64,000 nt of DNA. It comes from Klebsiella phage vB_KpM_FBKp24. Each line of letters opens with the position of its first letter. Within the stretch, counting starts at the first letter, position 1. The DNA is taken from the sequence record MW394391.1. One strand, written 5' to 3'. Shown piece after piece: positions 20,199 through 63,675 of this stretch. The position numbers were made by a program, and so were the translations under genes. Under the pieces are notes generated by a model. It had not been told where the DNA came from, made no database searches, and saw nothing but the letters and a program-made list of their open reading frames with translations.

Positions 20199-21713
20199 TT
20201 AATAACCGAGAACTTTGTTCAGTTGCTCAATTGCCAGACCCAGCGCTGCCTGGGCATCAATCTGCGCATCGATCGCCTTCTGCGTTGCCGCAAACTGAAG
20301 AACAATCTCATCGCGAAGCGGCTTGATCGCTGCGATCAACGCTTCATTACGTTCCTTCTGCTCCAGCTCTGCCGCTACCCGTTCGAGTTCCAGAATCTGT
20401 TTACGAACATCCACAGAACTAGTCGGTGCCGGTAATTGCTCTTTGAGCTCGATCGGTGTGATAGGGTCCGGTACCGCAGATAACATTTCAGGGAGCGTTG
20501 CTAAATTTACCGGTTTAACCTCTAGTTGCGCGAGGCGATTAGGGTATTGAGAAGAATTGGGTTTGACATCGGTCGTTTTCTTCTCTAACGCTTCCATTAC
20601 CGCCTGCGCTATCGCAGTAGTAGGTTCTTCGCCACACGTTCTCACTATTTCCTCCCCGCTCGGTTTCCCTTCATCAATAGCAACCCAGCTCACTACCTTC
20701 TCCTTTGCATTGGCGTTAGGGTGAGCATCATCGTAGATTCTGATTTTACCCTCGGTCAATAACGGATTTAGGATATCGTAACGGTCTTGGGAGCTCAATG
20801 CTCCGTCGAGGCCGATATAGTTCCACACCCGGAAGAGAGGTAACGGTTTTCCTAAATTGGTCAAAAGCTCAATGACCAAAGTACCTACTGCACGCGGATC
20901 AATTTTCCGGACATCTACAACCGAAGGGATAGGATCTAACGTGAGTGTAGGTGCCGCGTGATCGAAACGCTGCTCAGAGGTAGGCAACGGCTTGCAGAAG
21001 TCACCGTGCACAAAACGGCCCACCGGGTAACGAACATTTTCGCCTTCCGGGAACTGCTCCTTGACCCCTTCGTATTTCTTCAGGTAGTTCAGTACGTCAG
21101 AGCGCGCTTGACCTTTCAAGTATTTATACTCTACCAAAGCGTTGTCGAGCTCAGTGCGCGTAAAGCCTTCTTTATTAGTTAAAAGAAGCGCTTTGATTTT
21201 AACCGCCGCATTAATGAGTTTCCCATCTTTGAGGTGCAGTTTACGCAACTCGTCGAAATTGACGAGTTTCTTTTCTTCACCAAGGAAAACGATTTCATCT
21301 TTATTTACTGGTGTTTCAGTGCTCATAGCGGGTTTATCCATGACGGGGACAATACGGTTTATCAATGTGCGTTTGCGAGTCACGAGCGTCTGTTTCCCCG
21401 GAGCTGCAATGTGGACTACCTCTCCGGAGAGTTGATGTTGCGGTGGCTGCGCGACCACGTTAATCGGGGCTGAGTGCATTTTGTGACGCAGGTGCGGAGA
21501 GCCAACGACGCCTTTCCGCGTTATCGGGGTGACAACGATACGATCTTTTGTAATCACGTAATCCAGTAACAACCCTAGCTCTTTCTTGTTCAGCGTACGG
21601 AGGGAGGGGATTTTCGTTTGGAGAAGGTCGTAGGTCATTCCGTCGGGAATACGCTCCAGAAAGCGACTCAGTTCGTTATACGGTAAGTAAAGTTTTTCTT
21701 GTAAACGGGCCAT
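20199..21713 (-). CDS. hypothetical protein with a C-terminal coiled coil (504 aa). Its N-terminal ~80 aa are paralogous to the next ORF
   Basis: L.E.SRFLE..P.G.TYD.L..KIPSLR.LNK is shared with 21772..22050. Confidence 0.55.
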   Translation of the reverse strand: MARLQEKLYLPYNELSRFLERIPDGMTYDLLQTKIPSLRTLNKKELGLLLDYVITKDRIVVTPITRKGVVGSPHLRHKMHSAPINVVAQPPQHQLSGEVVHIAAPGKQTLVTRKRTLINRIVPVMDKPAMSTETPVNKDEIVFLGEEKKLVNFDELRKLHLKDGKLINAAVKIKALLLTNKEGFTRTELDNALVEYKYLKGQARSDVLNYLKKYEGVKEQFPEGENVRYPVGRFVHGDFCKPLPTSEQRFDHAAPTLTLDPIPSVVDVRKIDPRAVGTLVIELLTNLGKPLPLFRVWNYIGLDGALSSQDRYDILNPLLTEGKIRIYDDAHPNANAKEKVVSWVAIDEGKPSGEEIVRTCGEEPTTAIAQAVMEALEKKTTDVKPNSSQYPNRLAQLEVKPVNLATLPEMLSAVPDPITPIELKEQLPAPTSSVDVRKQILELERVAAELEQKERNEALIAAIKPLRDEIVLQFAATQKAIDAQIDAQAALGLAIEQLNKVLGY

Positions 21714-21771
21714 GTGATTACTCCTTTCTTAATGAAGAGGTGTTAACTTAACTTATCTTTTATCCAAATAT

Positions 21772-22050
21772 TTACCGGAAGAAGAAAGAGGGCGATATTA
21801 ATTCATTGGTTGATAGCATATATCTTTTATGTTTCAAAAATGTTATTTCACCAGCTTCATTCTTTGTAACAGAAATAAAACCCCTTTCAACGACGTATTT
21901 AAATAAGAGATCAAAATCTTCTTTGTTTAACAAGCGAAGCGAAGGGATTTTAAGTTTTAATGTATCGTAGGTAGATCCTGCTGGGTATTTTTCTAAGAAA
22001 ATATTAAGAGAATTGAAAGAGTCGTAAAGATTTGATTTTAAGCAGGTCAT
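21772..22050 (-). CDS. hypothetical protein (92 aa), a stand-alone copy of the N-domain of the upstream gene
   Basis: Sequence similarity to the N-terminus of the 504-aa protein. Confidence 0.45.
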   Translation of the reverse strand: MTCLKSNLYDSFNSLNIFLEKYPAGSTYDTLKLKIPSLRLLNKEDFDLLFKYVVERGFISVTKNEAGEITFLKHKRYMLSTNELISPSFFFR

Positions 22051-22081
22051 TTAATCTACTCCTTGCGTGTTAGAAACGGAG

Positions 22082-22450
22082 TTATTTAACCAACGTTTGA
22101 AGAGACGCAATGATTGCTTTTATTTCTTCATTATCGAAGACAATGTAGGTTGCCTTTTCTTCGTAGAAACCATCGCGGGTGGTACATTCTAAATCCATCG
22201 GGATATTAGAAGAGATACCATTTACCCGAGTCTCTTTCTGTGCACGCTCGTCGATGTCCATCAACGTTTCCGATGAGTCTGCATCAATATCGACGAGCGC
22301 TTTGTACACGAAATCATTTGTCATGGATTCGTATTTAATGTTCAATGAGTGGATAGCCGGCTCTAACAACGCTTCCTGATACGCGGGGCCAAAAATAAAC
22401 AGCGTTCCCGAAGGTAATTTGAGGAATTCTTCTTTGTTGTAAAGCTTCAT
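22082..22450 (-). CDS. hypothetical protein (122 aa; start re-assigned to MKLYNKEEF)
   Basis: GGAGAAATCAA-ATG RBS. The listed start is a TTG. Confidence 0.45.
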   Translation of the reverse strand: MKLYNKEEFLKLPSGTLFIFGPAYQEALLEPAIHSLNIKYESMTNDFVYKALVDIDADSSETLMDIDERAQKETRVNGISSNIPMDLECTTRDGFYEEKATYIVFDNEEIKAIIASLQTLVK

Positions 22451-22514
22451 TTGATTTCTCCTATAAAAGACAACGTAAATTAGAATCGAATTTGATTCAT
22501 CTGTCAATATTACA

Positions 22515-22548: not shown

Positions 22549-22578
22549 TTCCTTACAGCGCCTGAACGCTGTAAGGAA
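22549..22578 (-). terminator. terminator after the NAD module
   Basis: 12-bp stem TTCCTTACAGCG / CGCTGTAAGGAA. Confidence 0.5.
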
Positions 22579-22590
22579 AGTTTTATGCTA

Positions 22591-24348
22591 TCAAATCCAT
22601 TGTGCCGCACGTTCACGGATAGTACGAATACTTTCCAGAATCTTCACATCGCCGTTCAGGTAAACTGTACGCATCGCGTCTCGCTCACTTCCGCGCAACG
22701 TTTCGTACTGCTCCCGAGTCAGATCGTCTTTCAGTGTTAGCGTTCCATCATCTTCACGATAGACAATCAGATACCCTTTTGCTGACTTCTTAGTACCGTC
22801 GTCAGTTTTAGGGTTCTTCGCGATGTTGTAGTGTTTACCGTTGACTTTACCGGCGGTTGCCTTCATGGCGATGCCCAGAGTGTCGCGAGTCACAAACTGG
22901 AACTCGAAACTCCCTACCCCAAAGACAACGTTAGAGCTACAGAATCCATTCTCTTTCAAACGGGAAAGGATCCGTGTCATGGTGTTGATGTTGATCGCAT
23001 CGCCATAGATCAAACCGACGTGCGGATCCAGCTCTTTATACCCAGCGGCATTTGTGGTTCCGCCGAAGATTTCCCAGAGTATCTGTACTGCACCCTTCTG
23101 CTCTTCGATAGAAATAGGTTTCCCTGTTTTAGTCGAATAGAATTGACCATCAACACAGAAAGATTCGAAATTACCAGACGTAGCATTTTGAATCGCGACA
23201 AATTTCGTAGCATCTAAAGCAGAAGCTCCCCCTAAAACGACCATCTCTTGGGAATTGTGATTATCGCCGTCCCAAGTGTATCCGCAGAGGATATGGTACG
23301 GATTCCCGGAATCTGGACGATAGACCAGTTTACCGTCACGCGCCATAATCGCATCTTTGTTTGCGATAGCTTTGGTGGTGATGGTGTCAAAGAAGTCATT
23401 CGTATCACTGACGAAGCTGAAAACGCCAGAAGGGTAAACTTCCGTGATCAGGCGTCGTTGGAATAATTCCTCCGCCTTCGAGAGTAACTCCGCTTCTGTG
23501 ACATTAGCGTATTCAGGGGTCGCCTTCAGCTCCTCTGCGTAAACTGCAATATTCAGACAGGTTACGCTGTGTTCTGTGGCTGGGACACTACCAGCGATTT
23601 CCGAGACCGATACGTCGCCTTCTGGATTATAGAAGCGATTCGCGGTCCAGACCGAAGGGAAGCTGTCGCTCCCTTTGAAATAGATCAGCTGACCTACTGA
23701 GCTGTTCGCATCGTCAAACATCCCCGACATTCCACGTAACGCGAAGTTATGTGCCTGGTAGTCAATGAACGCTTGCGCCGCACCCGTCTCGTTAGCGTAC
23801 TGCTCCAGTACACGGCGGAAGTGTAACGCTTTCGTTGCCAACACGCACGGTTTCCAGAGTTCGTTACTCCAGAGGTCTTCGAAGTAACCGGTCAGCCACC
23901 CAAAGCCGTCGACAGTGTTTTCAATCGTCAGGAATGGAACACGAATAGGGACTAATGACCCCTCCGGTACCGCACGAATTTCGAGCGGGATATAACCCAG
24001 TTCGTGCAGCTCTTTCAGATGCGTCGATTTCACCACGCCTTTACCCAGAACCCCGTCCATGTATTCGAGGTATTCAGCCTCTACCTGATTAAACGGCGTT
24101 TTGAAGAAGTTATCAAAACTCCCGACCAACCAGCGGAGCACTAAACGCTGCAGACCCATAAATACCGAACCGTCAAAGTCCAGTGGGGTATTGAAGTACG
24201 TGTGACTTCTGGCCGTCAGGTTTTCAAAGAAGCTGTCGGTACCCAGCGGTTGTTGGTTGATGTGCCCGGTTTTATAGGCGTCACAGAGCAGGAATACCAG
24301 CGGATCTTCGGTATAGAATTTTGGGTCTTTCAGTAAAGGATTGGTCAT
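22591..24348 (-). CDS. nadV: nicotinamide phosphoribosyltransferase family protein (NadV/Nampt-like; possibly Namat of NARP1)
   Basis: Nampt-family length and overall similarity. Adjacent and overlapping (ATGA) with a Prs-like gene. Confidence 0.8.
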   Translation of the reverse strand: MTNPLLKDPKFYTEDPLVFLLCDAYKTGHINQQPLGTDSFFENLTARSHTYFNTPLDFDGSVFMGLQRLVLRWLVGSFDNFFKTPFNQVEAEYLEYMDGVLGKGVVKSTHLKELHELGYIPLEIRAVPEGSLVPIRVPFLTIENTVDGFGWLTGYFEDLWSNELWKPCVLATKALHFRRVLEQYANETGAAQAFIDYQAHNFALRGMSGMFDDANSSVGQLIYFKGSDSFPSVWTANRFYNPEGDVSVSEIAGSVPATEHSVTCLNIAVYAEELKATPEYANVTEAELLSKAEELFQRRLITEVYPSGVFSFVSDTNDFFDTITTKAIANKDAIMARDGKLVYRPDSGNPYHILCGYTWDGDNHNSQEMVVLGGASALDATKFVAIQNATSGNFESFCVDGQFYSTKTGKPISIEEQKGAVQILWEIFGGTTNAAGYKELDPHVGLIYGDAININTMTRILSRLKENGFCSSNVVFGVGSFEFQFVTRDTLGIAMKATAGKVNGKHYNIAKNPKTDDGTKKSAKGYLIVYREDDGTLTLKDDLTREQYETLRGSERDAMRTVYLNGDVKILESIRTIRERAAQWI

Positions 24349-25235
24349 TTCACGCGTCCATCTTTAGCGGTTAAATAGGATTGGGTTGGTAACCCGTCGT
24401 CGGTGATGTTTTCCCACCACACGTTAGTCGAGAAAATCTGATCGAAGGCAGCGGAAAGCTCGCCTAGTCCTTTCGAGAAAATACCGTGAGTCACGAAGAG
24501 ACTGAGCGATTTCGGGCTCTGAGTACTGAGCTTTTTCGCCAGCTCAGTGAAGGTCCACCCACCATCGCAAATGTCATCAACAACCAACAGATTACGACCT
24601 TCGATATTGTCGTTGTCCAGTAGCGTAATGTCGAGGATATTGCCGGTTTTGGTATCGCGCTTTTTGTTTGCATAAACGATAGGCGCACCACCCAAGAGTT
24701 TCGCCAGCTCTTCAGTTTTCTTCGCAGCGCCACCGTCAGGGGAAACTAACACGACGTTATTCTCCCGAATCCAATTGGCCAGGAGATTAAAGACTATTTT
24801 GGACTGCTCCAGAACGACGAGGTTTTTGATCAGGGCCGGGGTGACGTTAGAGTGCGGATCGTGTATCAACACTCGGTCTGCTTTCAGGCTGTTGAACAGC
24901 TCTGCGAATACGCCGAGGGAGAACGATTCTCCTGCATTACACACGCGGTCTTGGCGTGCGTACGGGAAATACGGTACGGTTAAATGAAGTTCTGTTTTCG
25001 CCGTATATTTACCAATACGACGAATAGCATCGACCAGCAGCAGTAAGCGGACTGCCTCACTGGAAGATTTGATACTTCCTTCTATTTTAACGATACCAAT
25101 ATCGTGCGGAGGAAGACCGTGGCGATTAATTGCAATATGTTCTTCCCCGCCCGGGAACGTTAAGTTTTCATAAAGGACGGGTTGTCCATCGAACGTAACT
25201 TTAAACATTGTAACCCCTTTAAAAATGGTAAACAA
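24345..25235 (-). CDS. ribose-phosphate pyrophosphokinase family protein (Prs-like; possibly ADPR-PP synthetase Adps)
   Basis: VPYFPYARQDR and the PRPP-binding loop LLVVDDICDGGWT. Confidence 0.8.
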   Translation of the reverse strand: MFTIFKGVTMFKVTFDGQPVLYENLTFPGGEEHIAINRHGLPPHDIGIVKIEGSIKSSSEAVRLLLLVDAIRRIGKYTAKTELHLTVPYFPYARQDRVCNAGESFSLGVFAELFNSLKADRVLIHDPHSNVTPALIKNLVVLEQSKIVFNLLANWIRENNVVLVSPDGGAAKKTEELAKLLGGAPIVYANKKRDTKTGNILDITLLDNDNIEGRNLLVVDDICDGGWTFTELAKKLSTQSPKSLSLFVTHGIFSKGLGELSAAFDQIFSTNVWWENITDDGLPTQSYLTAKDGRVK

Positions 25236-25256: not shown

Positions 25257-25796
25257 TCAGCGTGTTATCGGATTCTGGACTTTCACGTAGGTGGAAAATC
25301 GACACCGTTCGTGCCAACTAAACTCGTGAGTTTCGAGTACCCAACCCTTATGGACCGTAGTATAAGAGAGTAGTTTACCGAGCTCCTGAATAAGGTCGAT
25401 GTCTAACTTTATATTACCGTTGGAGTGAATGGGGATTTCCGTGACGTAGATCTTCTGTACACGATCGATCAATTGTTTGTAGATACTGACCCCTCCGCAG
25501 ATAACAACCTCGTTGTAGCCTCTTCTAGAGGCATCTACGGCGATATCTTCGAATGAGCTGTAGGCAATGATATCAGGGATAGATTCGAATTGAGAAGGGT
25601 TACTTGTCAGAACGTAGTGGGTACGTCCCGGTAAAGCCCGTCCTATTCCTTTTGCTGTAGTAGAGCCCATGACAATCGCTTTATTTTTGGTTTTCCTGAC
25701 GAACCATTGCATATCTTCTTCAGAACGCCAAGGGAGTTTATCGTCTTGACCAATGACGAAATCAAGATCGTGTGCTACGATGAGAGAGAAAATCAT
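25257..25796 (-). CDS. frd: dihydrofolate reductase
   Basis: N-terminus IVAHDLDFVIGQDDKLPW, and VMGSTTAKGIGRALPGRTHYVLT. Confidence 0.9.
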   Translation of the reverse strand: MIFSLIVAHDLDFVIGQDDKLPWRSEEDMQWFVRKTKNKAIVMGSTTAKGIGRALPGRTHYVLTSNPSQFESIPDIIAYSSFEDIAVDASRRGYNEVVICGGVSIYKQLIDRVQKIYVTEIPIHSNGNIKLDIDLIQELGKLLSYTTVHKGWVLETHEFSWHERCRFSTYVKVQNPITR

Positions 25797-25840
25797 TGTG
25801 AGTTACCTTTCAGTGAGTTCAAAATAAAAAACAGAAACGT

Positions 25841-25850
25841 GATAATAGAG
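25841..25850 (-). promoter_or_regulatory. GTGATAATAG motif variant upstream of frd
   Basis: ~45 nt upstream of frd ATG 25796. The spacing matches the other motif copies. Confidence 0.3.
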
Positions 25851-25977
25851 AGAGACGAATGTCTACCTGCCTAGTTTTAAAACTAATTCCTGAATATATC
25901 GGCGTAGGATAGGTTCTACTATAGTTTGATTCTTGTGACAATAACCTCACTACTAGCCCGGTTGGGCAGGAGATGAA

Positions 25978-27960
25978 ATGAGTACCAACTTTATATTCAT
26001 GCCAAATAATCAGTTCAGGTTGGTCGATAATGGTCGTGTCGCTAACGCTGGGAAGCTTTATATCGGTAAAGCAAACACAGATCCTACAGTCGCTGCTAAT
26101 CAGATAACCGTTACTGGTCTTGCCATTGACGGTACAAACAGTATCTTAAATCAACCAATTAATTTGGACAAGCATGGTTTCCCGTTGGACGAATTGGGAA
26201 ACGTAGTGACATTATCAGTTGACTCGCACTATAGCCTTGCTATCTTTGACGCGTACAGTAAACTACAACAATCAGTCAGTGCAGTGGAAATTAATGAGGT
26301 CGAGAGTTTTTCCTCCCTGCGTACATTACCTGTTCTCCGCGCCGGTCAAAGAGTTAGAGTGAAGGCTCATACAGCCGGAACTTCCTTGGGTGGCGGGGAG
26401 TTTATCGGTGTGTTGGGTACAAAAGCTGATGACGGCGGCGTTGTGGCCTCAGGTAGCGGCTTTTACTGGGTGAGGGTTATCAACGGTGTGGTAAATGTCG
26501 ATAACTTCGGCGCGCGGGGCGACGGGAGTGCAGACGATACTAACGCTATTCTCGCCGCACTTAACTACGCCATTGCTAATGGTATCTCCGTAGAGTTTAC
26601 CGCGAATAAAACTTACAAGATTACCGGCAGTACCGGGCTCAGTTTTGATATTGGTAAAATTTCCGTTGGTTGTTACAATGGTCGGGCTAAGCTGGATTTT
26701 AGCGGCTTCACTGGTACTACCGCTATCAACGTTTATTCTTCGTTAACTTATCCAACCTCCATGTACAGAAATACCACAAACCGTTTAATAGGACTGGAGG
26801 TATTTGGTGGGTTAACTACCGGGGTAAATGGGTTGTTAGTCGGTAATGACACTTACGATTACAACGGTCAAACTATTATTCAAAACTGTTCGTTCTTCCG
26901 GTTTGATAACGTGGTACTTTGCGCGAAGAATACGTGGCGAACCAAGTTTATCGCTTGTACGATTTCTACCGGGATAAGTAATATATTTTACGCGCCATCT
27001 GGTATTCTTAATTCTGGTGAAAGTATTACATTTAGCGATTGTCAGATTAGTGATTCTAATAACGCCCCTTTCACGGTTGCTTGCTCAAACTTCGCGATCG
27101 GCTTTATTGGTTCGTCGGTATTGAACACTCGATTAGTCATCAGCGGTTCGGGTAGCGTTGTCAGTATCGAAGGGATGAGTAATTTTGAAAACCCCAATGC
27201 CAAAAACTACTATCGGTTTGCTGAAGTTACCGGCGCCGGAGCGCGGCTGATTATCAGTTACTCAACGGTGGTCTGTAACACCCCTGCTATCCAAACAAAA
27301 CCACTATTTTACGTAGGGGCAAACGCATTCATCATTTTCAATGGAGTTAAACTCCAAGGTAATAGTTATCCTTTCGAATTGGATGCTACAGGACCAGGTA
27401 ACCGCCGGTGGATAGAAGGACCAGGATTTGTTTTTGCCACGGGCTGTACTTGTGATATTCTTTCTGGTGCAGGTAATATCCCGCTACATGAATCATTATC
27501 GCCGATTCGAAATTGGGATTTTGAAAGTGGTGATTTGAGTGACTGGGCTATTAATAACTCAGGATCTTCTGCTCAAACCGCGGTAGTATCGTCGACTTCC
27601 AGTAAAGTAGGTACGTATGGTTTACGGTTAACGTCAGTTAGCGGATTGAATATCTTCGCTACGTCTACATTTAGCGTGAAACCGGGTAGGTACTTCGCCA
27701 CCAGTTTCTGGGGACGAGTTGTTACGGCTAATGCCGGGGCAACGTCTGCAGGTAACTTAACACTCAGTTTTAAAACGGACGCAGGCGTGCAGATTAATGC
27801 ATTAACTGCTAATCTTCCTTCGAGTGTTACCGACTGGGCAGTTTACGGTGCCTTCATTCAGGGAGTTGTCCCACGTGGTGCTGCGAGAGCGGAGATTTCT
27901 TTACGAGCTTCTCAGGGCGCAGTTGTTGACTTTGATTCGGTTCTTTTCAATATGTTTTAA
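25978..27960 (+). CDS. tailspike/depolymerase with a pectate-lyase-like beta-helix and a C-terminal carbohydrate-binding module (660 aa)
   Basis: VDNFGARGDGSADDTNAI (pectate-lyase-3-like). C-terminal CBM4/9-like jelly-roll signature. Strong AGGAG RBS. Confidence 0.7.
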   Translation: MSTNFIFMPNNQFRLVDNGRVANAGKLYIGKANTDPTVAANQITVTGLAIDGTNSILNQPINLDKHGFPLDELGNVVTLSVDSHYSLAIFDAYSKLQQSVSAVEINEVESFSSLRTLPVLRAGQRVRVKAHTAGTSLGGGEFIGVLGTKADDGGVVASGSGFYWVRVINGVVNVDNFGARGDGSADDTNAILAALNYAIANGISVEFTANKTYKITGSTGLSFDIGKISVGCYNGRAKLDFSGFTGTTAINVYSSLTYPTSMYRNTTNRLIGLEVFGGLTTGVNGLLVGNDTYDYNGQTIIQNCSFFRFDNVVLCAKNTWRTKFIACTISTGISNIFYAPSGILNSGESITFSDCQISDSNNAPFTVACSNFAIGFIGSSVLNTRLVISGSGSVVSIEGMSNFENPNAKNYYRFAEVTGAGARLIISYSTVVCNTPAIQTKPLFYVGANAFIIFNGVKLQGNSYPFELDATGPGNRRWIEGPGFVFATGCTCDILSGAGNIPLHESLSPIRNWDFESGDLSDWAINNSGSSAQTAVVSSTSSKVGTYGLRLTSVSGLNIFATSTFSVKPGRYFATSFWGRVVTANAGATSAGNLTLSFKTDAGVQINALTANLPSSVTDWAVYGAFIQGVVPRGAARAEISLRASQGAVVDFDSVLFNMF

Positions 27961-46954: not shown

Positions 46955-48199
46955 TTACCCCTTCACGCAGACTATTTGTTTCAACGTAAAAAGAACTTCC
47001 ACGAGATCGTCTTGCGAACGCATTACATCGTCAATGTTCTTATACGCTTTTGGTGTTTCATCGATGACATCTTTGTCTTTGCGGCATTCGACGCCTTCAG
47101 TGTCACGTATTTGATCTTCTACTGTGAAGACACGTTTTGCTTCTCCACGGGACATCAGACGACCGGCGCCATGGGAACACGAGCAGAATGATTCTGAATT
47201 CCCTTTCCCGCGTACCACAAATGTTTTTGCACCCATCGACCCGGGAATAATAGCGAGATCGGTTGTCCTGGCTCTGACCGCCCCTTTACGGGTAACAAGG
47301 ACGTTTTGATCAAAGTGATTTTCCAGCGCAACGTAGTTATGATGACAATTGATGGCGGTCACTTTATTCTCGAAGGGTTTTTGTAAAACCTTATGCAGCG
47401 CAATCAGTGTTGCATTGAGCATAATGGCGCGGTTTACAGCCGCGAAGTCCTGTGCCCATTGCACAGCTTCTAGGTAGTCTTTGTAGTAGACCGACCCTTC
47501 CGGTAAATAAGCCAGGTCGTCATCAACTAAATGGATAAAGAAACGCGCCATTTCTTCCTTTGCTTTCTCAATGAAGAAACGACCAATTGCGTTACCTATA
47601 CCGCGAGAACCGGAATGAATTACTATCCAAAGTGAGTCATTCTGGTCGAGTGATAATTCAACAAAATGATTGCCGCTACCCAACGTTCCTGCGTGTGAAG
47701 CAAAACGGTTCGCGTTACGTAACAGAGTAGGGTATTTATCAGTGATGAACTTCAAGCGATTCTCTAATGAGACTAACTCGGCTTTAAGCTGTAGCGTTAA
47801 GTTTTGAGGGTCATTATTACCCCACGCTCCCCGGTCGTTCGGCCCACCGTTATCGGTACGGCCATGGGGGATGAGTTGTTCAATCGCGCTACGAATACCG
47901 GAAAGATCTGTTGGTAAGTCCTCGCGTTTTAACGATGTCTGTTGACCCACCAACCCGCAACCAATGTCAACACCAAGCGCAGCAGGAATAATGGCCCCCT
48001 TTGTTGCAATGACAGAACCTATTGTCGCACCCATCCCCCAGTGGACATCGGGCATGACTGCGATATGCTTGAAGATAAACGGTAAGGTAGTGAGGTTATG
48101 AAGTTGTTTTTCTGCCTGCTCTTCCACTGGGACAAATTTTGTCCAAGATTTAATGTTGACTTTGTCACCTTTAATAAAAACAATATTTGAATCTGACAT
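46955..48199 (-). CDS. rtcB: RNA-splicing ligase RtcB
   Basis: MPDVHWGMGATIGSV. NCHHNYVALENH (conserved His-rich active site). ~414 aa. Confidence 0.9.
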   Translation of the reverse strand: MSDSNIVFIKGDKVNIKSWTKFVPVEEQAEKQLHNLTTLPFIFKHIAVMPDVHWGMGATIGSVIATKGAIIPAALGVDIGCGLVGQQTSLKREDLPTDLSGIRSAIEQLIPHGRTDNGGPNDRGAWGNNDPQNLTLQLKAELVSLENRLKFITDKYPTLLRNANRFASHAGTLGSGNHFVELSLDQNDSLWIVIHSGSRGIGNAIGRFFIEKAKEEMARFFIHLVDDDLAYLPEGSVYYKDYLEAVQWAQDFAAVNRAIMLNATLIALHKVLQKPFENKVTAINCHHNYVALENHFDQNVLVTRKGAVRARTTDLAIIPGSMGAKTFVVRGKGNSESFCSCSHGAGRLMSRGEAKRVFTVEDQIRDTEGVECRKDKDVIDETPKAYKNIDDVMRSQDDLVEVLFTLKQIVCVKG

Positions 48200-57893: not shown

Positions 57894-58024
57894 TAGATTA
57901 CTCCACCCCAAACAATCGCCGCCGCAAATAACCACCAACCCCAGCTATGTTCCCCGTGAAAGAAACCATAGCCTCCAATACCGATTAACACTAAACTTAA
58001 AATACCGGCCATGAAATATTTCAT
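57893..58024 (-). CDS. small membrane protein (43 aa, MKYFMAGILSLVLIGIGGYGFFHGEHSWGWWLFAAAIVWGGVI)
   Basis: ATGA overlap with the TS stop. Two hydrophobic helices. Below the ORF-track cutoff. Confidence 0.4.
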   Translation of the reverse strand: MKYFMAGILSLVLIGIGGYGFFHGEHSWGWWLFAAAIVWGGVI

Positions 58025-59412
58025 ACCGACACCTCTATTTTAATCGCAGGGTGGTGTTTGTATTCCGTGAAGACGAAGTCCTCAAAGGTGAGTTCAAATA
58101 ATCCTTTCTTTGGAACGACCACCGCCGAATCGTAATAGTGCTCAGAACGAACAAAACATTCTACTGGTTTATACGGCTCACGAGTAAGCTGTAATTTCAC
58201 TTCCTCGATCTGGTTAAGGTAGATATGGACGTTAGTCAGATTACCAACCAACTGTTTTGGCGCCATCCCCAACTCATGGGCAAAGGCCAGTAACATGAAT
58301 GCGTAGAACGCCTGGTTATACGGTTCGCCGACGGGTAAGTCCACGGAACGCATTGAGTACTTAAGACTCAACCACTGCGTAGGGACATGATTCTCAGTGA
58401 GCCACTCCGCTTTACGTTCTGCCGACATCTTAGGTTGATTACAATGTTCTTCTGCGTAGCAGTCGGACATGTGATCTTCCCAGAGATCCTGGAAGTACGG
58501 GTTAGCGTTATTCGCGCACCAATCCAAACGCTCGCGCAGCGTCATCTCTTCCACGTAGAACTCTACGAGGAAATGACAGGGAGTGAGGCACGGTTTTCCG
58601 TTGATAACGTTTTCCTGCGGTGTCACCTTTACCGTCTTAGTTCGCGGTACCCCGTGACTGGCCAGAAAATCTTCGCAGTTATCGGTCTTACCGTGATCTT
58701 CCAGGCGCGGCCAGAAGATCGCATAAAGGTCCGGGCTGTGGGTTTTTAAATGTTCCCACATCTCGTCATTAGTGAGAGTAACTTCTTTCGTTTCCTCTGG
58801 CATCCAGAGTGGGTTCCACGCCGAGATGAGAATCCGGCGGGATTCTGGATTGTTCCGCAGCAGGTCTAAAACATATGCGACTTGATCAACGCCTTTCTTC
58901 TTAAGCGGGTCTTCCGAGAAGTTTCGCCAGGCGCTACCATACGGCGCATTCAGATCATTTACGTGATGTGCGATTACCGAGCGCGTACGCGGTACGTTAT
59001 GCGAATCCAACCACACGTGACCCTCTTCGACTGGGCGAATAGAGATCTTCTTACTGAAGAACTCGATGTACGCATCTTCGTTGTTTTCTTCCAGCCAACG
59101 CAAACGCTCGTAATTCTCCAACTCCACTTCCGTAGAGACGTTTTCCTTCAACCGCCACGGCGCCCAGAAATCCCCTTTCCCGTCCTCGGTGATCATCGAC
59201 TCCATATGGAGCTCACCATTAAGGATAGAACGGAACTCTCGCCAAGCCAGTTTACGAGAAACAAACTTTGTGGTGAGTAACGGGAACTCACCTTTTGATA
59301 GATCGTATTTTAATCTGGCATCAAAAATACCGATAGTCCCTGTCCCGGTACGATCGCCGCGCACTCGTCCTGTTTCCAAGACTTCCTGGAGTAATTCAAG
59401 GTATTGTTTCAT
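58021..59412 (-). CDS. thyA: thymidylate synthase homologue with three large insertions (463 aa)
   Basis: N-terminus MKQYLELLQEVL..GDRTGTGT. RRILISAWNP. The PCH nucleophile motif. YSMRSVD. PYNQAFYAF. C-terminus HHPAIK. Confidence 0.8.
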   Translation of the reverse strand: MKQYLELLQEVLETGRVRGDRTGTGTIGIFDARLKYDLSKGEFPLLTTKFVSRKLAWREFRSILNGELHMESMITEDGKGDFWAPWRLKENVSTEVELENYERLRWLEENNEDAYIEFFSKKISIRPVEEGHVWLDSHNVPRTRSVIAHHVNDLNAPYGSAWRNFSEDPLKKKGVDQVAYVLDLLRNNPESRRILISAWNPLWMPEETKEVTLTNDEMWEHLKTHSPDLYAIFWPRLEDHGKTDNCEDFLASHGVPRTKTVKVTPQENVINGKPCLTPCHFLVEFYVEEMTLRERLDWCANNANPYFQDLWEDHMSDCYAEEHCNQPKMSAERKAEWLTENHVPTQWLSLKYSMRSVDLPVGEPYNQAFYAFMLLAFAHELGMAPKQLVGNLTNVHIYLNQIEEVKLQLTREPYKPVECFVRSEHYYDSAVVVPKKGLFELTFEDFVFTEYKHHPAIKIEVSV

Positions 59413-60582: not shown

Positions 60583-60610
60583 AGAGAGGGGGAGATTCCC
60601 CTCTCTTTTC
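60583..60610 (-). terminator. rho-independent terminator
   Basis: AGAGAGGGG-GAGATT-CCCCTCTCT flanked by A/T runs. Confidence 0.7.
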
Positions 60611-61209
60611 TATTTACCCGTGCGAGTGTTTACCCAGGAAGACAAATGCTTCAGTTTGTCACGATGAGCGAGTAGCTTGCTCCAGCTTTTCTCGGGTTTG
60701 TTGGTGGAATCTCCAACTACCCTTTGATAGGCGTAGACGATTTGATCGTAAGAAACTTCAGCCGGCATCCCGCCAGTGGCCGTACAGAAGAGAGGCATGA
60801 CAACCTCAGAAATTTTCCTGTCGGGTGTCATCTTATTGAAATAAACAATTTGACAGAATGCAGCGAGGGCCACACGGTAAGCGATATCTTTTTCTTTTGC
60901 GGGGCTAGGAAAACGCATAGTCGGCGCGTAGCACAGCTGTAGATTACCGCCTAAAGAAACAGTAATAGCTTGGCCCACCGGCATTTCTTTACCCCAGAAA
61001 CGCTCGATAGCAAATTGTACTGCATCTTGAGAATCGGGAAATTTATTCGCTATAACTTTGTCGAAGCCGCCATCCATGATCCCGAATGAATTACCTGGCG
61101 TAATAACGCAGTCGTAATCTTTTCCCGGGATCAGCGCATTAAAGTCGCCTTTCTGGTAATGTTGGCGGGGTGAAAGATTTACTCTGTCAACGATCTTTAG
61201 ATTAAACAT
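60610..61209 (-). CDS. macro-domain-like protein (second copy; 199 aa)
   Basis: ITPGNSFGIMDGGFDKVI resembles the macro-domain Gly-rich ADP-ribose-binding loop. Confidence 0.45.
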   Translation of the reverse strand: MFNLKIVDRVNLSPRQHYQKGDFNALIPGKDYDCVITPGNSFGIMDGGFDKVIANKFPDSQDAVQFAIERFWGKEMPVGQAITVSLGGNLQLCYAPTMRFPSPAKEKDIAYRVALAAFCQIVYFNKMTPDRKISEVVMPLFCTATGGMPAEVSYDQIVYAYQRVVGDSTNKPEKSWSKLLAHRDKLKHLSSWVNTRTGK

Positions 61210-62570: not shown

Positions 62571-63109
62571 TAAACACTGTAGAAGTTGATCGCATGAATA
62601 CCGGAAGAGAGGGTATCAAGTTCCCCTAGGTCATCAGGGTCAATAAGGTTGACCTTTAACCCTGTCGCCAACAAACGTTTCAGATTGTAAGCCACGGCTG
62701 TCTGAGGAATCCGAAACGTAATCGCTTGTTGGTTTCTGAAGTGACTAACCAAATCGCGAGGGGCATCACCTAAACGTTCTAGATACTTAGCGAACGTTTC
62801 GCCATCTAACCCGTCTAACGACCACTGCCAAACGACACCGTCTGCCGCAACGACAGCCACTCCTTTATAACGATACGGTTTTTGGTATTCTCCCCATTTG
62901 ATACTCTCTGGCTGATAGCAAGAATTGTAATCTGTGATCCTCAGTTCTTCGCCAGGTTCTGCTTCATCGACCATTTCAGCAAAAGCGGGAAGGAGAATAG
63001 TCTCACCGGCAGCGTTTTTAGCATGGGCGACAATTTCACCCTCAGTGAGCCCATAAGCATCAGCTGCGTAAACCCCACGTTCAAACTTCAATTTTATCTG
63101 CTGAGTCAT
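62552..63109 (-). CDS. hypothetical protein (185 aa)
   Basis: ORF with a 4-nt overlap with the Tpt1 gene. Confidence 0.5.
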   Translation of the reverse strand: MTQQIKLKFERGVYAADAYGLTEGEIVAHAKNAAGETILLPAFAEMVDEAEPGEELRITDYNSCYQPESIKWGEYQKPYRYKGVAVVAADGVVWQWSLDGLDGETFAKYLERLGDAPRDLVSHFRNQQAITFRIPQTAVAYNLKRLLATGLKVNLIDPDDLGELDTLSSGIHAINFYSVYWVFTK

Positions 63110-63675
63110 TCTTTCTTTTCCTCTATTTTAAAACAGCCAACCGGAACGTGCCTGACTAACCAGACCCCGTTCAACGCTTTGTAGAACACGTAGCCGAGCT
63201 CAATTAATTTCTCGGCATCTACGCTCAGTACCACGAGAGAGCCTTTCTTAGCGTACCGTAAACCCACTAACCGCGCCGTCTCAATGTGATCGGTCAAATG
63301 GACAAACTGACGAGATTGCGGATTGAGTCCGTTCTCAAAAATGCTCTCTAAGTTACCCGATGCGGTACCGTGGTACAAAACCCTAGGAGGGGTCTCTTTG
63401 CTAAAAGACATTTCATTCACTGGGAAAGAATGCCCTTGTACCGCTCTGATTGCCGAAAGGTCTTTGGAAAGACTGAATCGTTTCTTGTCGTCTGTTTCAA
63501 CGACGTACATTAACTCCTCTAAACTGACCTCTTTTTTCTGCTCACTGAAAGCAGCAATAAGATCGTCGAGTTTTACATATCCAAATTCGTCCGGCGTTAA
63601 TTTCAATGCCTGAGGGCGATGACGTAAAACAAAACAGAGCGTTTTAGACAGTTTAATGGGGTCATTCATTAGCAT
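63106..63675 (-). CDS. kptA: RNA 2'-phosphotransferase Tpt1/KptA
   Basis: LSKTLCFVLRHRP. IRAVQGHS. LYHGT. FVHLT. NGVWL. ~190 aa, typical of bacterial KptA. Confidence 0.8.
   Translation of the reverse strand: MLMNDPIKLSKTLCFVLRHRPQALKLTPDEFGYVKLDDLIAAFSEQKKEVSLEELMYVVETDDKKRFSLSKDLSAIRAVQGHSFPVNEMSFSKETPPRVLYHGTASGNLESIFENGLNPQSRQFVHLTDHIETARLVGLRYAKKGSLVVLSVDAEKLIELGYVFYKALNGVWLVRHVPVGCFKIEEKKE

What the first reader, a model, noticed from the sequence alone, without database searches (positions are those of the whole stretch)
22591..25235. Adjacent Nampt-like + Prs-like pair: a candidate NARP1 NAD+ reconstitution module (Namat + Adps)
A 585-aa Nampt/NadV-family gene and a 296-aa Prs-family gene sit back to back with an ATGA stop/start overlap. 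The Prs-family gene carries the canonical VPYFPYARQDR and VVDDICDGG PRPP loops. In phages, this exact pairing was recently shown to encode ADPR-pyrophosphate synthetase plus nicotinamide-ADPR transferase, rather than classical Prs and NadV. That pair rebuilds NAD+ from ADPR and nicotinamide and so counters NAD+-depleting immunity such as Thoeris, DSR, or SEFIR/SIR2 systems. The sequence alone cannot separate Prs from Adps, but the gene context matches.
Basis: partly seen in the sequence, partly recalled or inferred. Interest (0 to 1): 0.8.

Follow-up and report, generated by a model that had tools for sequence, protein, structure and literature searches.

The report
Known phage NAD+ rebuilding gene pair
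These two overlapping genes of a jumbo Klebsiella phage are a genuine member of NARP1, a published two-enzyme pathway that rebuilds NAD+ after bacterial defences destroy it, and this exact pair is already listed in the discovery paper's tables, so the call is right but not new.

Summary
Two minus-strand genes overlap by ATGA: a 585-aa Nampt-like gene (22591-24348) and a Prs-like gene (24345-25208). The Prs-like gene is 287 aa from an ATG with a ribosome-binding site, not 296 aa from the upstream TTG.

The Prs-like protein falls in the Adps clade: it splits from canonical Prs in 100% of bootstraps and scores 275 bits on an Adps HMM against 71 on a Prs HMM. It also carries Adps-type loops. The Nampt-like protein carries the published Namat adenine-clamp motif (GSFEFQFVTRD). 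Its best match among solved structures is the SPbetaL1 Namat crystal structure, and its score profile mirrors the validated Bas63 Namat, not a KVP40-type Nampt.

Both genes are under strong purifying selection (dN/dS 0.03-0.09). The window matches Klebsiella phage vB_KpM_FBKp24. Both proteins, at 100% identity, are already in Osterman et al. 2024 Supplementary Tables 1 and 2 as an Adps homologue and an "Adps-associated" Namat. Novelty is therefore "already known", although this phage's pair has not been tested biochemically.

Noted in passing: an unlinked Macro_2 ADPR-1''-phosphatase-like gene, KptA and RtcB also lie in the window, and close relatives carry NadR and PnuC just beyond it.

The parts
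24345..25208 (-). adps: ADP-ribose pyrophosphate synthetase homologue (Prs family, Adps clade), 287 aa from the ATG at 25208
   Evidence: ORF. ATG plus RBS. phrog_619 at 297 bits against a best canonical Prs model of 128 bits, with all Prs equivalogs far below cutoff. The Prs | Adps+window split has 100% bootstrap support. Adps HMM 274.9 bits against Prs HMM 71.2 bits. 100% identical to MW394391_00204 in Osterman 2024 Table S1.
22591..24348 (-). namat: nicotinamide ADP-ribose transferase homologue (Nampt family, Namat clade), 585 aa
   Evidence: ORF. Best PDB sequence hit is 9w5x/9w5w SPbetaL1 Namat at 395 bits, against 157 bits for mammalian NAMPT. Best fold hit is 9w5x with TM 0.94. 42-45% identical to validated Namats and 29-33% to phage Nampts. 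100% identical to the FBKp24 protein, which Table S2 lists as 'Adps-associated'.
24345..24348 (-). ATGA overlap: the adps stop (TGA) overlaps the namat start (ATG), which suggests translational coupling
   Evidence: Read directly from the sequence. Menlow and SPbetaL1 also have overlapping or abutting adps-namat genes.
25214..25220 (-). Shine-Dalgarno-like AAAGGGG, 5 nt upstream of the adps ATG
   Evidence: Sequence.
22882..22914 (-). Namat selectivity-clamp helix (SCH) motif GSFEFQFVTRD, residues 479-489. The aromatic residues F481 and F485 sit at the two adenine-stacking positions.
   Evidence: Motif definition GS-X-phi-X-phi-X-phi-TRD from PMC12774641. Alignment and residue mapping. All 120 best database homologues carry the motif, whereas phage Nampts have GGGLLQxxxRD.
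24181..24210 (-). Namat selectivity-clamp loop (SCL) region RSHTYFNTPL, residues 47-56. It has the long Bas63-type loop length.
   Evidence: Alignment. T50 aligns with R40 of SPbetaL1, and Y51/F52 follow it. This loop discriminates only weakly.
23464..23550 (-). Namat insertion 1 (about residues 267-295) relative to SPbetaL1 Namat, predicted helical
   Evidence: Alignment gaps. AF2 model pLDDT around 93-97 in this stretch. Bas63 Namat has a shorter insertion at the same site.
23101..23277 (-). Namat insertion 2 (about residues 358-416), a small alpha/beta subdomain after the RPDSG strand
   Evidence: Alignment. AF2 predicts strands 359-364, 396-399 and 402-405 and helix 377-391, with block pLDDT 81-96. 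Bas63 and Menlow have different insertions at the same site.
24945..24977 (-). Adps pyrophosphate-loop motif VPYFPYARQDR (residues 78-88), shared with Prs
24636..24668 (-). Adps flexible catalytic loop NKKRDTKTGNI (residues 181-191). K182 aligns with the essential K162 of SPbetaL1 Adps. The loop follows the Adps-type K-x-R-[DN]-x-x-T-G pattern rather than the Prs K-R-R-P pattern.
   Evidence: Alignment and mapping. The K162A mutation abolishes activity (Osterman 2024). The pattern is present in 101 of 120 homologues.
24549..24578 (-). Adps ribose-5-phosphate-loop equivalent DDICDGGWTF (residues 211-220). It is Adps-type DGGxT instead of Prs DTGGT. Trp at position x is rare.
   Evidence: Alignment. 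Among 120 homologues, DGGRT occurs 89 times and DGGWT 3 times.
22549..22578 (-). 12-bp GC-rich hairpin starting 12 nt after the namat stop and followed by a T-rich tail on the minus strand. It is the probable transcription terminator that closes the unit.
25257..25796 (-). Dihydrofolate reductase gene, 48 nt upstream on the same strand. It is probably co-transcribed but is context, not part of NARP1.
   Evidence: PF00186 at 3.8e-31. The DHFR-adps-namat order is conserved in relatives. A divergent intergenic region lies upstream, at 25797-25977.

Best explanation
The pair is a NARP1 module (NAD+ reconstitution pathway 1) of the jumbo Klebsiella phage vB_KpM_FBKp24.

Inferred mechanism, by homology to characterised members:
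- When a host SIR2-, TIR- or SEFIR-type defence cleaves NAD+ into ADP-ribose and nicotinamide, the first enzyme (Adps, 24345-25208) uses ATP to pyrophosphorylate the terminal ribose of ADP-ribose, giving ADPR-pyrophosphate.
- The second enzyme (Namat, 22591-24348) replaces the pyrophosphate with nicotinamide, giving NAD+ directly.
- This restores the NAD+ pool and lets the phage replicate.

Shown here from sequence:
- Both proteins belong to the Adps and Namat clades.
- The catalytic and specificity residues are conserved.
- The genes are overlapping, ordered adps then namat, conserved across relatives, under purifying selection, and closed by a terminator-like hairpin.

Inferred only: the enzyme activities and the anti-defence effect in this phage.
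For: Published listing:
- The identical proteins are listed as an Adps homologue with Namat within 10 genes (MW394391_00204) and as an 'Adps-associated' Namat (MW394391_00203) in Osterman et al. 2024 Tables S1 and S2 (identity verified).

Adps:
- NJ tree with 500 bootstraps: the Prs | Adps+window split is found in 100%. The window protein sits inside the group bracketed by the experimentally validated Bas63, SPbetaL1 and FADO Adps.
- An HMM built from Adps sequences without the window lineage gives 274.9 bits, against 71.2 bits for a Prs HMM. An HMM of the three validated Adps alone gives 146.9 bits, while E. coli Prs scores 81.4 on it.
- Adps-type motifs are present: DPHSNVTPALIKN, K-x-R-D-x-x-T-G, and DGGWT. 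The Prs N- and C-terminal helices are absent. K182 aligns with the essential K162.

Namat:
- The SCH motif GSFEFQFVTRD has aromatic residues at both adenine-stacking positions.
- All NAM/NMN/AMP-contact residues of the SPbetaL1 structure are conserved, except the SCL R40 position.
- PDB score profile in bits for Namat / HdNadV / mammalian NAMPT / 7yqo: window 395/308/157/141; validated Bas63 Namat 430/352/144/178; KVP40-like Nampt, the opposite pattern, 240/204/359/401.
- The AF2 model (pLDDT 92.9) best matches the Namat crystal structure, TM 0.94.

Context:
- ATGA overlap.
- dN/dS 0.025-0.085.
- Synteny in 11 relatives.
- The published rule that 97% of Adps-clade genes have an adjacent Namat.
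Against: - No biochemical or genetic test exists for this phage or its genus. Membership rests on sequence and on a bioinformatic catalogue.
- Identity to the validated Adps proteins is low (25-34%) and only modestly above identity to Prs (23-24%). My outgroup contained only gammaproteobacterial Prs plus one mycobacterial fragment.
- The lineage has unusual residues at specificity-relevant positions: Thr rather than Arg/Lys/Tyr at SCL position 3, Glu at SCH phi1 (13 of 120 homologues), and Trp in the Adps DGGxT loop (3 of 120).
- Namat enzymes also make NMN from PRPP in vitro, and close relatives of this phage encode NadR. A contribution through NMN is therefore not excluded.
- H. ducreyi NadV is solved in complex with NMN or nicotinamide (PDB titles) and, from my own knowledge, forms NMN. 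It is nevertheless closer in sequence to the Namat group than to classical Nampt. Overall similarity alone is therefore not decisive.
Confidence: 0.9

Rival explanations
1. Classical salvage route (NARP2-like). The Prs-like enzyme makes PRPP and the Nampt-like enzyme makes NMN from nicotinamide. A phage NadR (NMN adenylyltransferase), encoded elsewhere in the genome, then completes NAD+ synthesis.
For: - Pfam and NCBIfam name the proteins Nampt and Prs, and TIGR01251 is passed at 128 bits against a cutoff of 113.
- The close relatives Centimanus and KpLz-2_45 encode NadR and PnuC about 8-10 kb beyond kptA, that is, just outside the window.
- Namat enzymes retain NMN-forming activity with PRPP in vitro.
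Against: - The Prs-like protein is in the Adps clade and lacks Prs-type loops.
- All Prs equivalog models score 3- to 8-fold below their cutoffs.
- SPbetaL1 Adps gave no product in the assay intended to test PRPP synthesis.
- The Nampt-like protein has the aromatic Namat clamp, which enforces ADPR-PP preference, rather than the GGGLLQ of Nmnat-associated phage Nampts.
- NadR is not adjacent to the pair. It is paired with PnuC, an arrangement Osterman et al. treat as a separate nicotinamide-riboside route.
Confidence: 0.05
2. Nucleotide-supply role. The Prs-like enzyme is a genuine PRPP synthetase that boosts nucleotide synthesis for a 300-kb genome. It would be co-expressed with DHFR, and the window also holds ThyA and Tdk. 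The Nampt-like gene would be incidental.
For: The gene lies 48 nt downstream of DHFR on the same strand, apparently in one transcription unit. Thymidylate synthase and thymidine kinase are also in the window.
Against: - The Adps-clade and motif evidence is the same as above.
- The stop/start overlap with namat, and the conserved adps-namat pairing across more than 850 phages, argue for a joint function.
- DHFR adjacency is lineage-specific. Bas63, SPbetaL1, FADO, Menlow and PS119XW have other neighbours.
Confidence: 0.03
3. The pair is a decayed or non-functional remnant, or the ORFs are chance reading frames.
For: None found.
Against: - Both ORFs are intact and full length, with conserved catalytic residues.
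- dN/dS is 0.025-0.085 at substantial dS.
- The AF2 model has a pLDDT of 92.9.
- An RBS and a terminator-like hairpin are present.
Confidence: 0.01

Closest known systems
NARP1 of Escherichia phage Bas63 (JohannRWettstein gp79-80), Bacillus phage SPbetaL1 (gp190-191) and phage FADO (Osterman et al. 2024; Namat structures 9W5X/9W5W, Lan et al. 2026)
   Same: - Two-gene adps-then-namat arrangement, overlapping or abutting.
- Adps-type loops, including the essential Lys.
- Namat catalytic core and the SCH motif with two aromatic stacking residues.
- Long SCL and a large insertion after RPDSG, as in Bas63 Namat (593 aa against 585 aa).
   Different: - Only 25-34% (Adps) and 42-45% (Namat) identical to the validated proteins.
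- SCL position 3 is Thr.
- SCH phi1 is Glu.
- The Adps loop is DGGWT instead of DGGRT or S[FY]GGT.
- The two Namat insertions have lineage-specific sequence.
- The upstream neighbour is DHFR.
- The pair has not been tested experimentally.
Haemophilus ducreyi NadV (PDB 9KE8/9KEO). It is solved in complex with NMN or nicotinamide (PDB titles). That it is a bona fide NMN-forming Nampt is from my own knowledge.
   Same: It is the second-best match among solved structures, at 308 bits and TM 0.91. It belongs to the same sequence neighbourhood as the Namat clade rather than to the mammalian, Xanthomonas or T4-like phage Nampt group.
   Different: Its clamp helix reads GAQTYQRNTRD, with Gln and Arg at the two positions where Namat, including the window protein, has aromatic residues. 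That it forms NMN is from my own knowledge and the PDB titles.
NARP2 / classical Nampt of KVP40-type and other T4-like phages (Nmnat-associated)
   Same: Same fold and the same nicotinamide and ribose-phosphate binding residues.
   Different: - 29-33% identity.
- GGGLLQxxxRD in place of the aromatic clamp.
- Short SCL and no insertions.
- Opposite PDB score profile.
- No adjacent Adps.
Class I ribose-phosphate pyrophosphokinase (Prs), for example E. coli Prs
   Same: Same two-domain PRT-type fold family, the PYxxYARQDR pyrophosphate loop, the catalytic Lys, and the DD acidic pair.
   Different: - 23-24% identity.
- Lacks the N-terminal and C-terminal Prs helices.
- DLHAEQIQGFFD is replaced by DPHSNVTPALIKN.
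- KRRP is replaced by KKRDTKTG.
- DTGGT is replaced by DGGWT.
- Prs HMM scores 71 bits against 275 bits for the Adps HMM.
NARP1-AP (Adps-Adpp-Namat with a Macro-domain ADPR-1''-phosphate phosphatase, Vibrio phage Gary; Osterman et al. 2026 preprint)
   Same: The window also encodes a Macro-domain protein (60610-61209). Its nearest solved relative is a yeast ADPR-1''-monophosphatase.
   Different: - The Macro gene lies 35 kb from the pair, not within the operon.
- It has no detectable pairwise similarity to Gary Adpp.
- FBKp24 is not in the NARP1-AP table.

Membership tests
NARP1 (Adps + Namat) | The Prs-family protein falls in the Adps clade, separate from cellular Prs. | tested here: met
   The NJ split Prs | Adps+window is found in 100% of 500 bootstraps, and the window protein is nested among validated Adps. 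Adps HMM 274.9 bits against Prs HMM 71.2 bits. phrog_619 at 297 bits. The protein is listed in Osterman Table S1.
NARP1 (Adps + Namat) | A Namat homologue lies in the immediate vicinity (within 10 genes), with the order adps then namat. | tested here: met
   The genes are adjacent with a 4-nt ATGA overlap on the same strand, adps first.
NARP1 (Adps + Namat) | [quoted passage not shown] | tested here: met
   GSFEFQFVTRD at residues 479-489. F481 and F485 align with F392 and Y396 of SPbetaL1. Phi1 is Glu rather than the usual Thr/Ser.
NARP1 (Adps + Namat) | The Namat SCL supplies an adenine-stacking residue: Arg at position 3, or Lys/Tyr at position 3 followed by a stacking residue at position 4. 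| tested here: inconclusive
   The loop has the long Bas63-type length, but position 3 is Thr50, followed by Tyr51 and Phe52. Phage Nampts also show Lys-Phe at these columns, so the column pattern alone does not discriminate.
NARP1 (Adps + Namat) | Conserved Nampt-like catalytic core in Namat (D13, Y15, F189, R192, D215, catalytic His, R306, D308 in SPbetaL1 numbering). | tested here: met
   The equivalents are D23, Y25, F202, R205, D228, H260, R344 and D346, all conserved.
NARP1 (Adps + Namat) | Essential catalytic Lys of Adps (K162 in SPbetaL1). | tested here: met
   K182 aligns with K162, within an Adps-type K-x-R-D-x-x-T-G loop.
NARP1 (Adps + Namat) | Enzyme activities: ADPR + ATP gives ADPR-PP, and ADPR-PP + nicotinamide gives NAD+. 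| not testable with these tools
   This needs purified proteins and LC-MS, as in Osterman et al. 2024.
NARP1 (Adps + Namat) | Counteracts NAD+-depleting defences (SIR2-HerA, DSR1/2, type I Thoeris, SEFIR). | not testable with these tools
   This needs phage deletion or co-expression plaque assays.
Canonical Prs (PRPP synthetase) | Scores above the curated equivalog cutoffs and carries the Prs-type ribose-5-phosphate loop DTGGT, the DLHAxQIQGFFD motif, and the terminal helices. | tested here: not met
   The best equivalog scores are 103, 93 and 74 bits against cutoffs of 296-536 bits. Only the broad subfamily model TIGR01251 is passed, at 128 bits against 113. The loops are DGGWT and DPHSNVTPALIKN, and the N- and C-terminal Prs segments are absent.
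NMN-forming Nampt of NARP2 / classical salvage | Non-aromatic SCH-equivalent (GGGLLQ type), a short SCL-equivalent loop, and association with an NMN adenylyltransferase. | tested here: not met
   The protein has an aromatic clamp and a long loop. No NMNAT lies in the window. NadR occurs only distally, and only in relatives. NCBIfam PRK09198 is passed at 422 bits against 405, but that model does not separate Namat from Nampt.
NARP1-AP (with Adpp phosphatase) | A Macro-domain gene (PF14519/PF01661/PF20016) within two genes of the NARP1 pair. | tested here: not met
   The neighbours are DHFR, a tailspike, and proteins with no Pfam match. The only Macro hit is at 60610-61209, 35 kb away. It is not similar to Gary Adpp.
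NARP1 with RyDEP (RyR-domain cADPR glycosidase) | A PF02026 RyR-domain gene inside or next to the NARP1 operon. | tested here: not met
   PF02026 was not among the families reported from a Pfam scan of 97 window ORFs (that scan lists only the 25 families matched by most members), and it did not hit the flanking ORFs scanned individually.

The most novel reading that the evidence does not exclude
The phage runs a dispersed NAD+/ADP-ribose economy rather than a bare two-gene NARP1. An unlinked Macro_2 protein (60610-61209, fold nearest to yeast ADPR-1''-monophosphatase) would convert ADPR-1''-phosphate to ADPR and so feed Adps in trans. The ADPR-1''-phosphate could come from RES-type defences or from the phage's own KptA/Tpt1 RNA-repair reaction. 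This would amount to a split NARP1-AP that operon-based searches miss. The recurrence of Macro, ThyA, RtcB, Adps and Namat in the same order in the unrelated Pseudomonas jumbo phage PS119XW would then reflect functional linkage, not only shared ancestry.
Probability: 0.15. Interest if true: 0.45.

Novelty: already known. Interest (0 to 1): 0.15.

Why it matters
NARP1 is a widespread phage counter-defence, reported in about 4% of sequenced phages. It neutralises every immune system that kills by cleaving NAD+ into ADP-ribose and nicotinamide. Knowing that this therapeutic-candidate Klebsiella jumbo phage lineage carries it helps predict host range against Klebsiella strains armed with SIR2, TIR or SEFIR systems. 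It also corrects the misleading database names (Prs, Nampt).

As a discovery it adds nothing. The identical proteins are already in the discovery paper's catalogue. The modest added value here is an explicit residue-level membership test, the lineage-specific deviations (Thr50, Glu482, Trp218, two folded insertions), and the observation that other NAD+/ADPR-handling genes sit in the same genome.

Tried and rejected
- **PADLOC scan** of both proteins gave only weak PRT-domain hits to PsyrT and ShosT. I dismissed these as a shared phosphoribosyltransferase fold.
- **Exact-sequence look-ups of encoding contigs** for Adps and for P0121 found nothing on record. Provenance therefore rests on 100% protein identity to FBKp24.
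- **The genome-contig scan with E. coli Prs** returned only gammaproteobacterial Prs at 80-99% identity. This gives a shallow outgroup, and no Prs from more distant taxa was obtained apart from one M. smegmatis fragment copied.
- **The first bootstrap script** timed out and was replaced by a numpy NJ implementation.
- **The sigma-70 promoter scan** found no more sites than shuffled sequence (6 against 7.5), so no promoter is claimed.
- **The FBKp24 genome paper** does not mention NAD, nicotinamide or salvage.
- **Fold comparison cannot by itself separate Namat from Nampt.** TM scores are 0.94 against 0.90-0.91, so I used it only as supporting evidence.
- **The SCL rule** turned out to discriminate poorly in my alignment.
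- **No Adps structure** appears in the PDB copy searched, so the ADPR-binding pocket of Adps could not be checked against an experimental template. I ran no further search on it because a Prs-like model would not discriminate between substrates.
- **The Macro protein as an Adpp orthologue** was rejected, because there is no pairwise similarity to Gary Adpp.


Full report
**Observation.** The Nampt-like ORF is 22591..24348 (585 aa). The Prs-like ORF is listed mechanically as 24345..25235 (296 aa) from a TTG. The stop of the upstream gene and the start of the downstream gene share ATGA. An in-frame ATG at 25208 is preceded by AAAGGGG five bases upstream. That start gives 287 aa, which agrees with the annotation in three relatives and with the N-termini of homologues. 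I take 24345..25208 as the gene. Pfam finds NAPRTase plus NAMPT_N in the first protein and Pribosyltran (plus a weak Pribosyltran_N) in the second. PHROGs gives phrog_448 (554 bits) and phrog_619 (297 bits). The quoted loops VPYFPYARQDR and VVDDICDGG are present.

**Where the window comes from.** A 4-kb query around the pair matches eleven roughly 300-kb Klebsiella jumbo phage records. The best is vB_KpM_Centimanus at 97%; KpLz-2_45 belongs to the genus Siatvirus. The Nampt-like protein is 100% identical to that of Klebsiella phage vB_KpM_FBKp24 (verified). In all annotated relatives the order is DHFR, Prs-like, Nampt-like.

**What is already published.** Osterman et al. 2024 (bioRxiv 10.1101/2024.02.11.579819) showed that phage operons annotated Prs plus Nampt in fact encode two different enzymes.
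- Nicotinamide ADPR-transferase (Namat) converts ADPR-PP plus nicotinamide to NAD+.

The pair overcomes SIR2-HerA, type I Thoeris, DSR1, DSR2 and SEFIR. In their survey, 97% of Adps-clade genes have Namat nearby, and 859 phages carry the pair. Their Supplementary Table 1 (Adps homologues) contains MW394391_00204 of vB_KpM_FBKp24, marked "Namat within 10 genes: Yes". Table 2 contains MW394391_00203, marked "Adps-associated". A script confirmed two identities. The Table 1 sequence equals the window's 287-aa protein residue for residue. The 399 residues shown in Table 2 equal the start of the window's 585-aa protein. The exact pair is therefore already catalogued as NARP1, on bioinformatic grounds only.

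**Independent test of the Prs-like protein.** I aligned it with three experimentally validated Adps (Bas63 gp79, SPbetaL1 gp190, FADO gp78; loci), eleven other Table S1 Adps, E. coli Prs, six further gammaproteobacterial Prs, and an M. smegmatis fragment. The window protein shows the Adps state at every discriminating segment:
- It has no N-terminal Prs helix and no C-terminal LAEAIRR helix.
- It has DPHSNVTPALIKN where Prs has DLHAEQIQGFFD.
- It has NKKRDTKTGNI where Prs has DKRRPRANV.
- It has DDICDGGWTF where Prs has DDMIDTGGT.

K182 aligns with K162 of SPbetaL1 Adps, whose K162A mutant is inactive.

A neighbour-joining tree separates Prs from all Adps plus the window protein in 100% of 500 bootstraps. 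The window protein pairs with Klebsiella phage Menlow (94%). The Prs branch attaches beside the Gram-positive Adps clade, so the validated Bas63 and SPbetaL1/FADO proteins bracket the window protein.

An HMM built from Adps sequences, excluding the window and Menlow, scores the window protein at 274.9 bits. A Prs HMM gives 71.2 bits. An HMM of the three validated Adps alone gives 146.9 bits, while E. coli Prs scores 81.4 on it. NCBIfam agrees. Only the broad subfamily model TIGR01251 is passed (128 against 113 bits), and every Prs equivalog falls far below its cutoff. The PDB copy holds no Adps, and the best Prs hit is only 73 bits.

Two caveats apply. The outgroup is narrow. Raw identity to the Gram-positive validated Adps (25-29%) barely exceeds identity to Prs (23-24%), so the motifs, the profiles and the tree carry the argument.

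**Independent test of the Nampt-like protein.** Lan et al. 2026 (PMC12774641) solved SPbetaL1 Namat (9W5X, 9W5W). They defined a "selectivity clamp" with two parts.
- A variable loop, the SCL.

The double mutant R40A/F392G loses NAD+ formation but keeps NMN formation.

The window protein reads GSFEFQFVTRD at residues 479-489, with F481 and F485 at the stacking positions. Three Nampts of T4-like phages with no adjacent Adps read GGGLLQxxxRD. Every nicotinamide-, ribose-phosphate- and AMP-contact residue of the crystal structure is conserved, apart from the SCL position.

The SCL has the long Bas63-type length (RSHTYFNTPL), but Thr stands where Arg, Lys or Tyr is typical. The aligned columns also look similar in Nampts, so I score that feature as inconclusive.

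Sequence searches against the PDB give a clear reciprocal pattern:

| Query | SPbetaL1 Namat | 9KE8 | Mammalian NAMPT | 7YQO |
|---|---|---|---|---|
| Window protein | 395 | 308 | 157 | 141 |
| Validated Bas63 Namat | 430 | 352 | 144 | 178 |
| KVP40-like Nampt | 240 | 204 | 359 | 401 |

All values are bit scores. All 120 best database homologues carry the aromatic motif, and the exact window variant occurs in 12 clusters.

An AlphaFold2 model (pLDDT 92.9) best matches the Namat crystal structure (TM 0.94). Next comes H. ducreyi NadV (9KE8/9KEO, TM 0.91), then mammalian NAMPT at about 0.90. The H. ducreyi enzyme, solved in complex with NMN, sits near the Namat group but has Gln and Arg at the two clamp positions. 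This shows that the clamp residues are the informative feature, not overall similarity. The window protein has them.

**Anatomy and expression.** Relative to SPbetaL1 Namat, the protein has two insertions, at about residues 267-295 and 358-416. Bas63 Namat has insertions at the same two sites and Menlow at the second, with unrelated sequence. The model predicts both window insertions to be folded, as helices and as a small alpha/beta unit.

A 12-bp GC-rich hairpin with a T-rich tail on the minus strand begins 12 nt after the namat stop. Upstream of DHFR lies a divergent intergenic region facing a plus-strand tailspike gene. I therefore infer a three-gene unit, DHFR-adps-namat. No promoter can be claimed, because promoter-like sites were no more frequent than in shuffled sequence.

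Against KpLz-2_45 and MJ359, dN/dS is 0.025-0.028 for adps and 0.075-0.085 for namat, at dS 0.33-1.35. Both genes are under strong purifying selection.

**Mechanism.** Steps shown here are family membership, conserved catalytic and specificity residues, gene coupling, and selection. Steps inferred by homology are these: Adps pyrophosphorylates ADPR with ATP, Namat condenses ADPR-PP with nicotinamide to give NAD+, and the phage thereby escapes NAD+-depleting defences. I put this at about 0.9.

The main rival is classical PRPP to NMN salvage completed by a phage NadR. It gains some plausibility because Centimanus and KpLz-2_45 encode NadR and PnuC about 8-10 kb beyond kptA, just outside the window, and because Namat can make NMN in vitro. 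The Adps-type loops and the aromatic clamp argue against it. A pure nucleotide-supply role for the Prs-like gene, suggested by its DHFR neighbour, fails on the same evidence. It also fails because DHFR adjacency is peculiar to this lineage.

**Accessory genes.** Known NARP1 extensions are a Macro-domain ADPR-1''-phosphate phosphatase (Adpp, the NARP1-AP pathway) and a RyR-domain cADPR glycosidase (RyDEP). Neither lies next to the pair, and FBKp24 is not in the NARP1-AP table.

A Pfam scan of the other 97 ORFs of the window turned up several related genes:
- KptA/Tpt1 at 63106-63675
- RtcB at 46955-48199
- ThyA at 58021-59412
- a 199-aa protein at 60610-61209 with a borderline Macro_2 hit

That last protein has only one PDB sequence hit, 1NJR. 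Its AF2 model (pLDDT 94.6) best matches 1NJR, yeast Ymx7, an ADP-ribose-1''-monophosphatase, followed by the DarG and alphavirus macrodomains. The Macro-2 clade is described as converting Appr-1''-p to ADPR in the tRNA-splicing pathway (PMC6397177). The protein shows no pairwise similarity to the validated Adpp of Vibrio phage Gary.

In Pseudomonas jumbo phage PS119XW, homologues of Macro, ThyA, RtcB, Adps and Namat occur in the same order within 11 kb. This may be inherited synteny or functional linkage. It supports, weakly, the idea of a dispersed ADPR-recycling network. I give that reading a probability of about 0.15.

**Verdict.** The pair is a bona fide sequence-level member of NARP1 and is already listed as such in the literature. 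It is therefore not novel and deserves low interest as a discovery. What remains open is experimental confirmation in this lineage, and the meaning of its few unusual residues and of the distal Macro gene.

Noticed in passing
window 60610-61209 (-): A 199-aa protein with a borderline Macro_2 (PF14519) hit at 26.4 bits against a cutoff of 27. Its only PDB sequence hit and its best fold match is 1NJR, yeast Ymx7 ADP-ribose-1''-monophosphatase. The AF2 model has pLDDT 94.6. The motif PGNSFGIMDGGFD is invariant in 23 homologues. It is a candidate ADPR-1''-phosphate phosphatase lying 35 kb from NARP1. It is not similar to the validated Adpp of phage Gary, and relatives mis-annotate it as 'tail protein'. 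Centimanus did not appear among the tblastn hits.
   Followed up: yes
window 63106-63675 (-): KptA/Tpt1 RNA 2'-phosphotransferase (PF01885 at 2.7e-42; phrog_5470). [quoted passage not shown]
   Followed up: partly
window 46955-48199 (-): RtcB RNA ligase (PF01139 at 4e-120). In Pseudomonas jumbo phage PS119XW an RtcB-type ligase lies immediately upstream of adps-namat, with ThyA and the Macro homologue a few kb further upstream. This is the same relative order as in the window.
   Followed up: partly
outside the window: L093 10600-12962 (Centimanus) and L002 37228-39273 (KpLz-2_45): Close relatives encode PnuC (nicotinamide riboside transporter) and NadR (NMN adenylyltransferase / NR kinase) about 8-10 kb beyond kptA. 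The lineage therefore probably carries a second NAD+ route in addition to NARP1. Osterman et al. mention NadR+PnuC operons as an untested candidate pathway.
   Followed up: partly
window 25978-27960 (+): A 660-aa tailspike with a P22-type head-binding domain (PF09008), a pectate-lyase-like region and a carbohydrate-binding region. It faces DHFR across a divergent intergenic region. In Centimanus the corresponding position holds a minus-strand tail protein gene, and in KpLz-2_45 and MJ359 it holds different plus-strand tail or tailspike genes. This looks like a swapped receptor-binding module, in line with the branched-fibre biology reported for this phage.
   Followed up: no
window 20199-22507 (-): The region just downstream of namat differs from Centimanus. 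The window has three ORFs (122-141 aa, 92 aa and 504 aa) where Centimanus has one 513-aa ORF. The 92-aa and 504-aa proteins share an N-terminal module (phrog_2539), which suggests duplication or an indel.
   Followed up: no
window 58021-59412 (-): The thymidylate synthase is unusually long at 463 aa, and the Pfam domain is matched in two stretches, which implies a large insertion. PS119XW has a similarly long ThyA of 476 aa.
   Followed up: no
window 24549-24578 (-), Adps residue W218: The Adps loop reads DGGWT, whereas 89 of 120 homologues have DGGRT and only 3 have Trp. This position replaces a Gly of the Prs ribose-5-phosphate loop and may contact the ADP moiety of ADPR. Its significance is unknown.
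   Followed up: partly
database homologues P0025, P0044, P0047, P0055, P0077, P0113, P0147, P0212, P0220: Adps- and Namat-like proteins at 41-48% identity occur on multi-megabase bacterial contigs (Cyanobacterium, Geminocystis, Thorsellia, Enterovibrio, Pseudoalteromonas, Erwinia, Paramixta). This fits the reported bacterial NARP1 homologues. Whether they lie in prophages was not checked.
   Followed up: no
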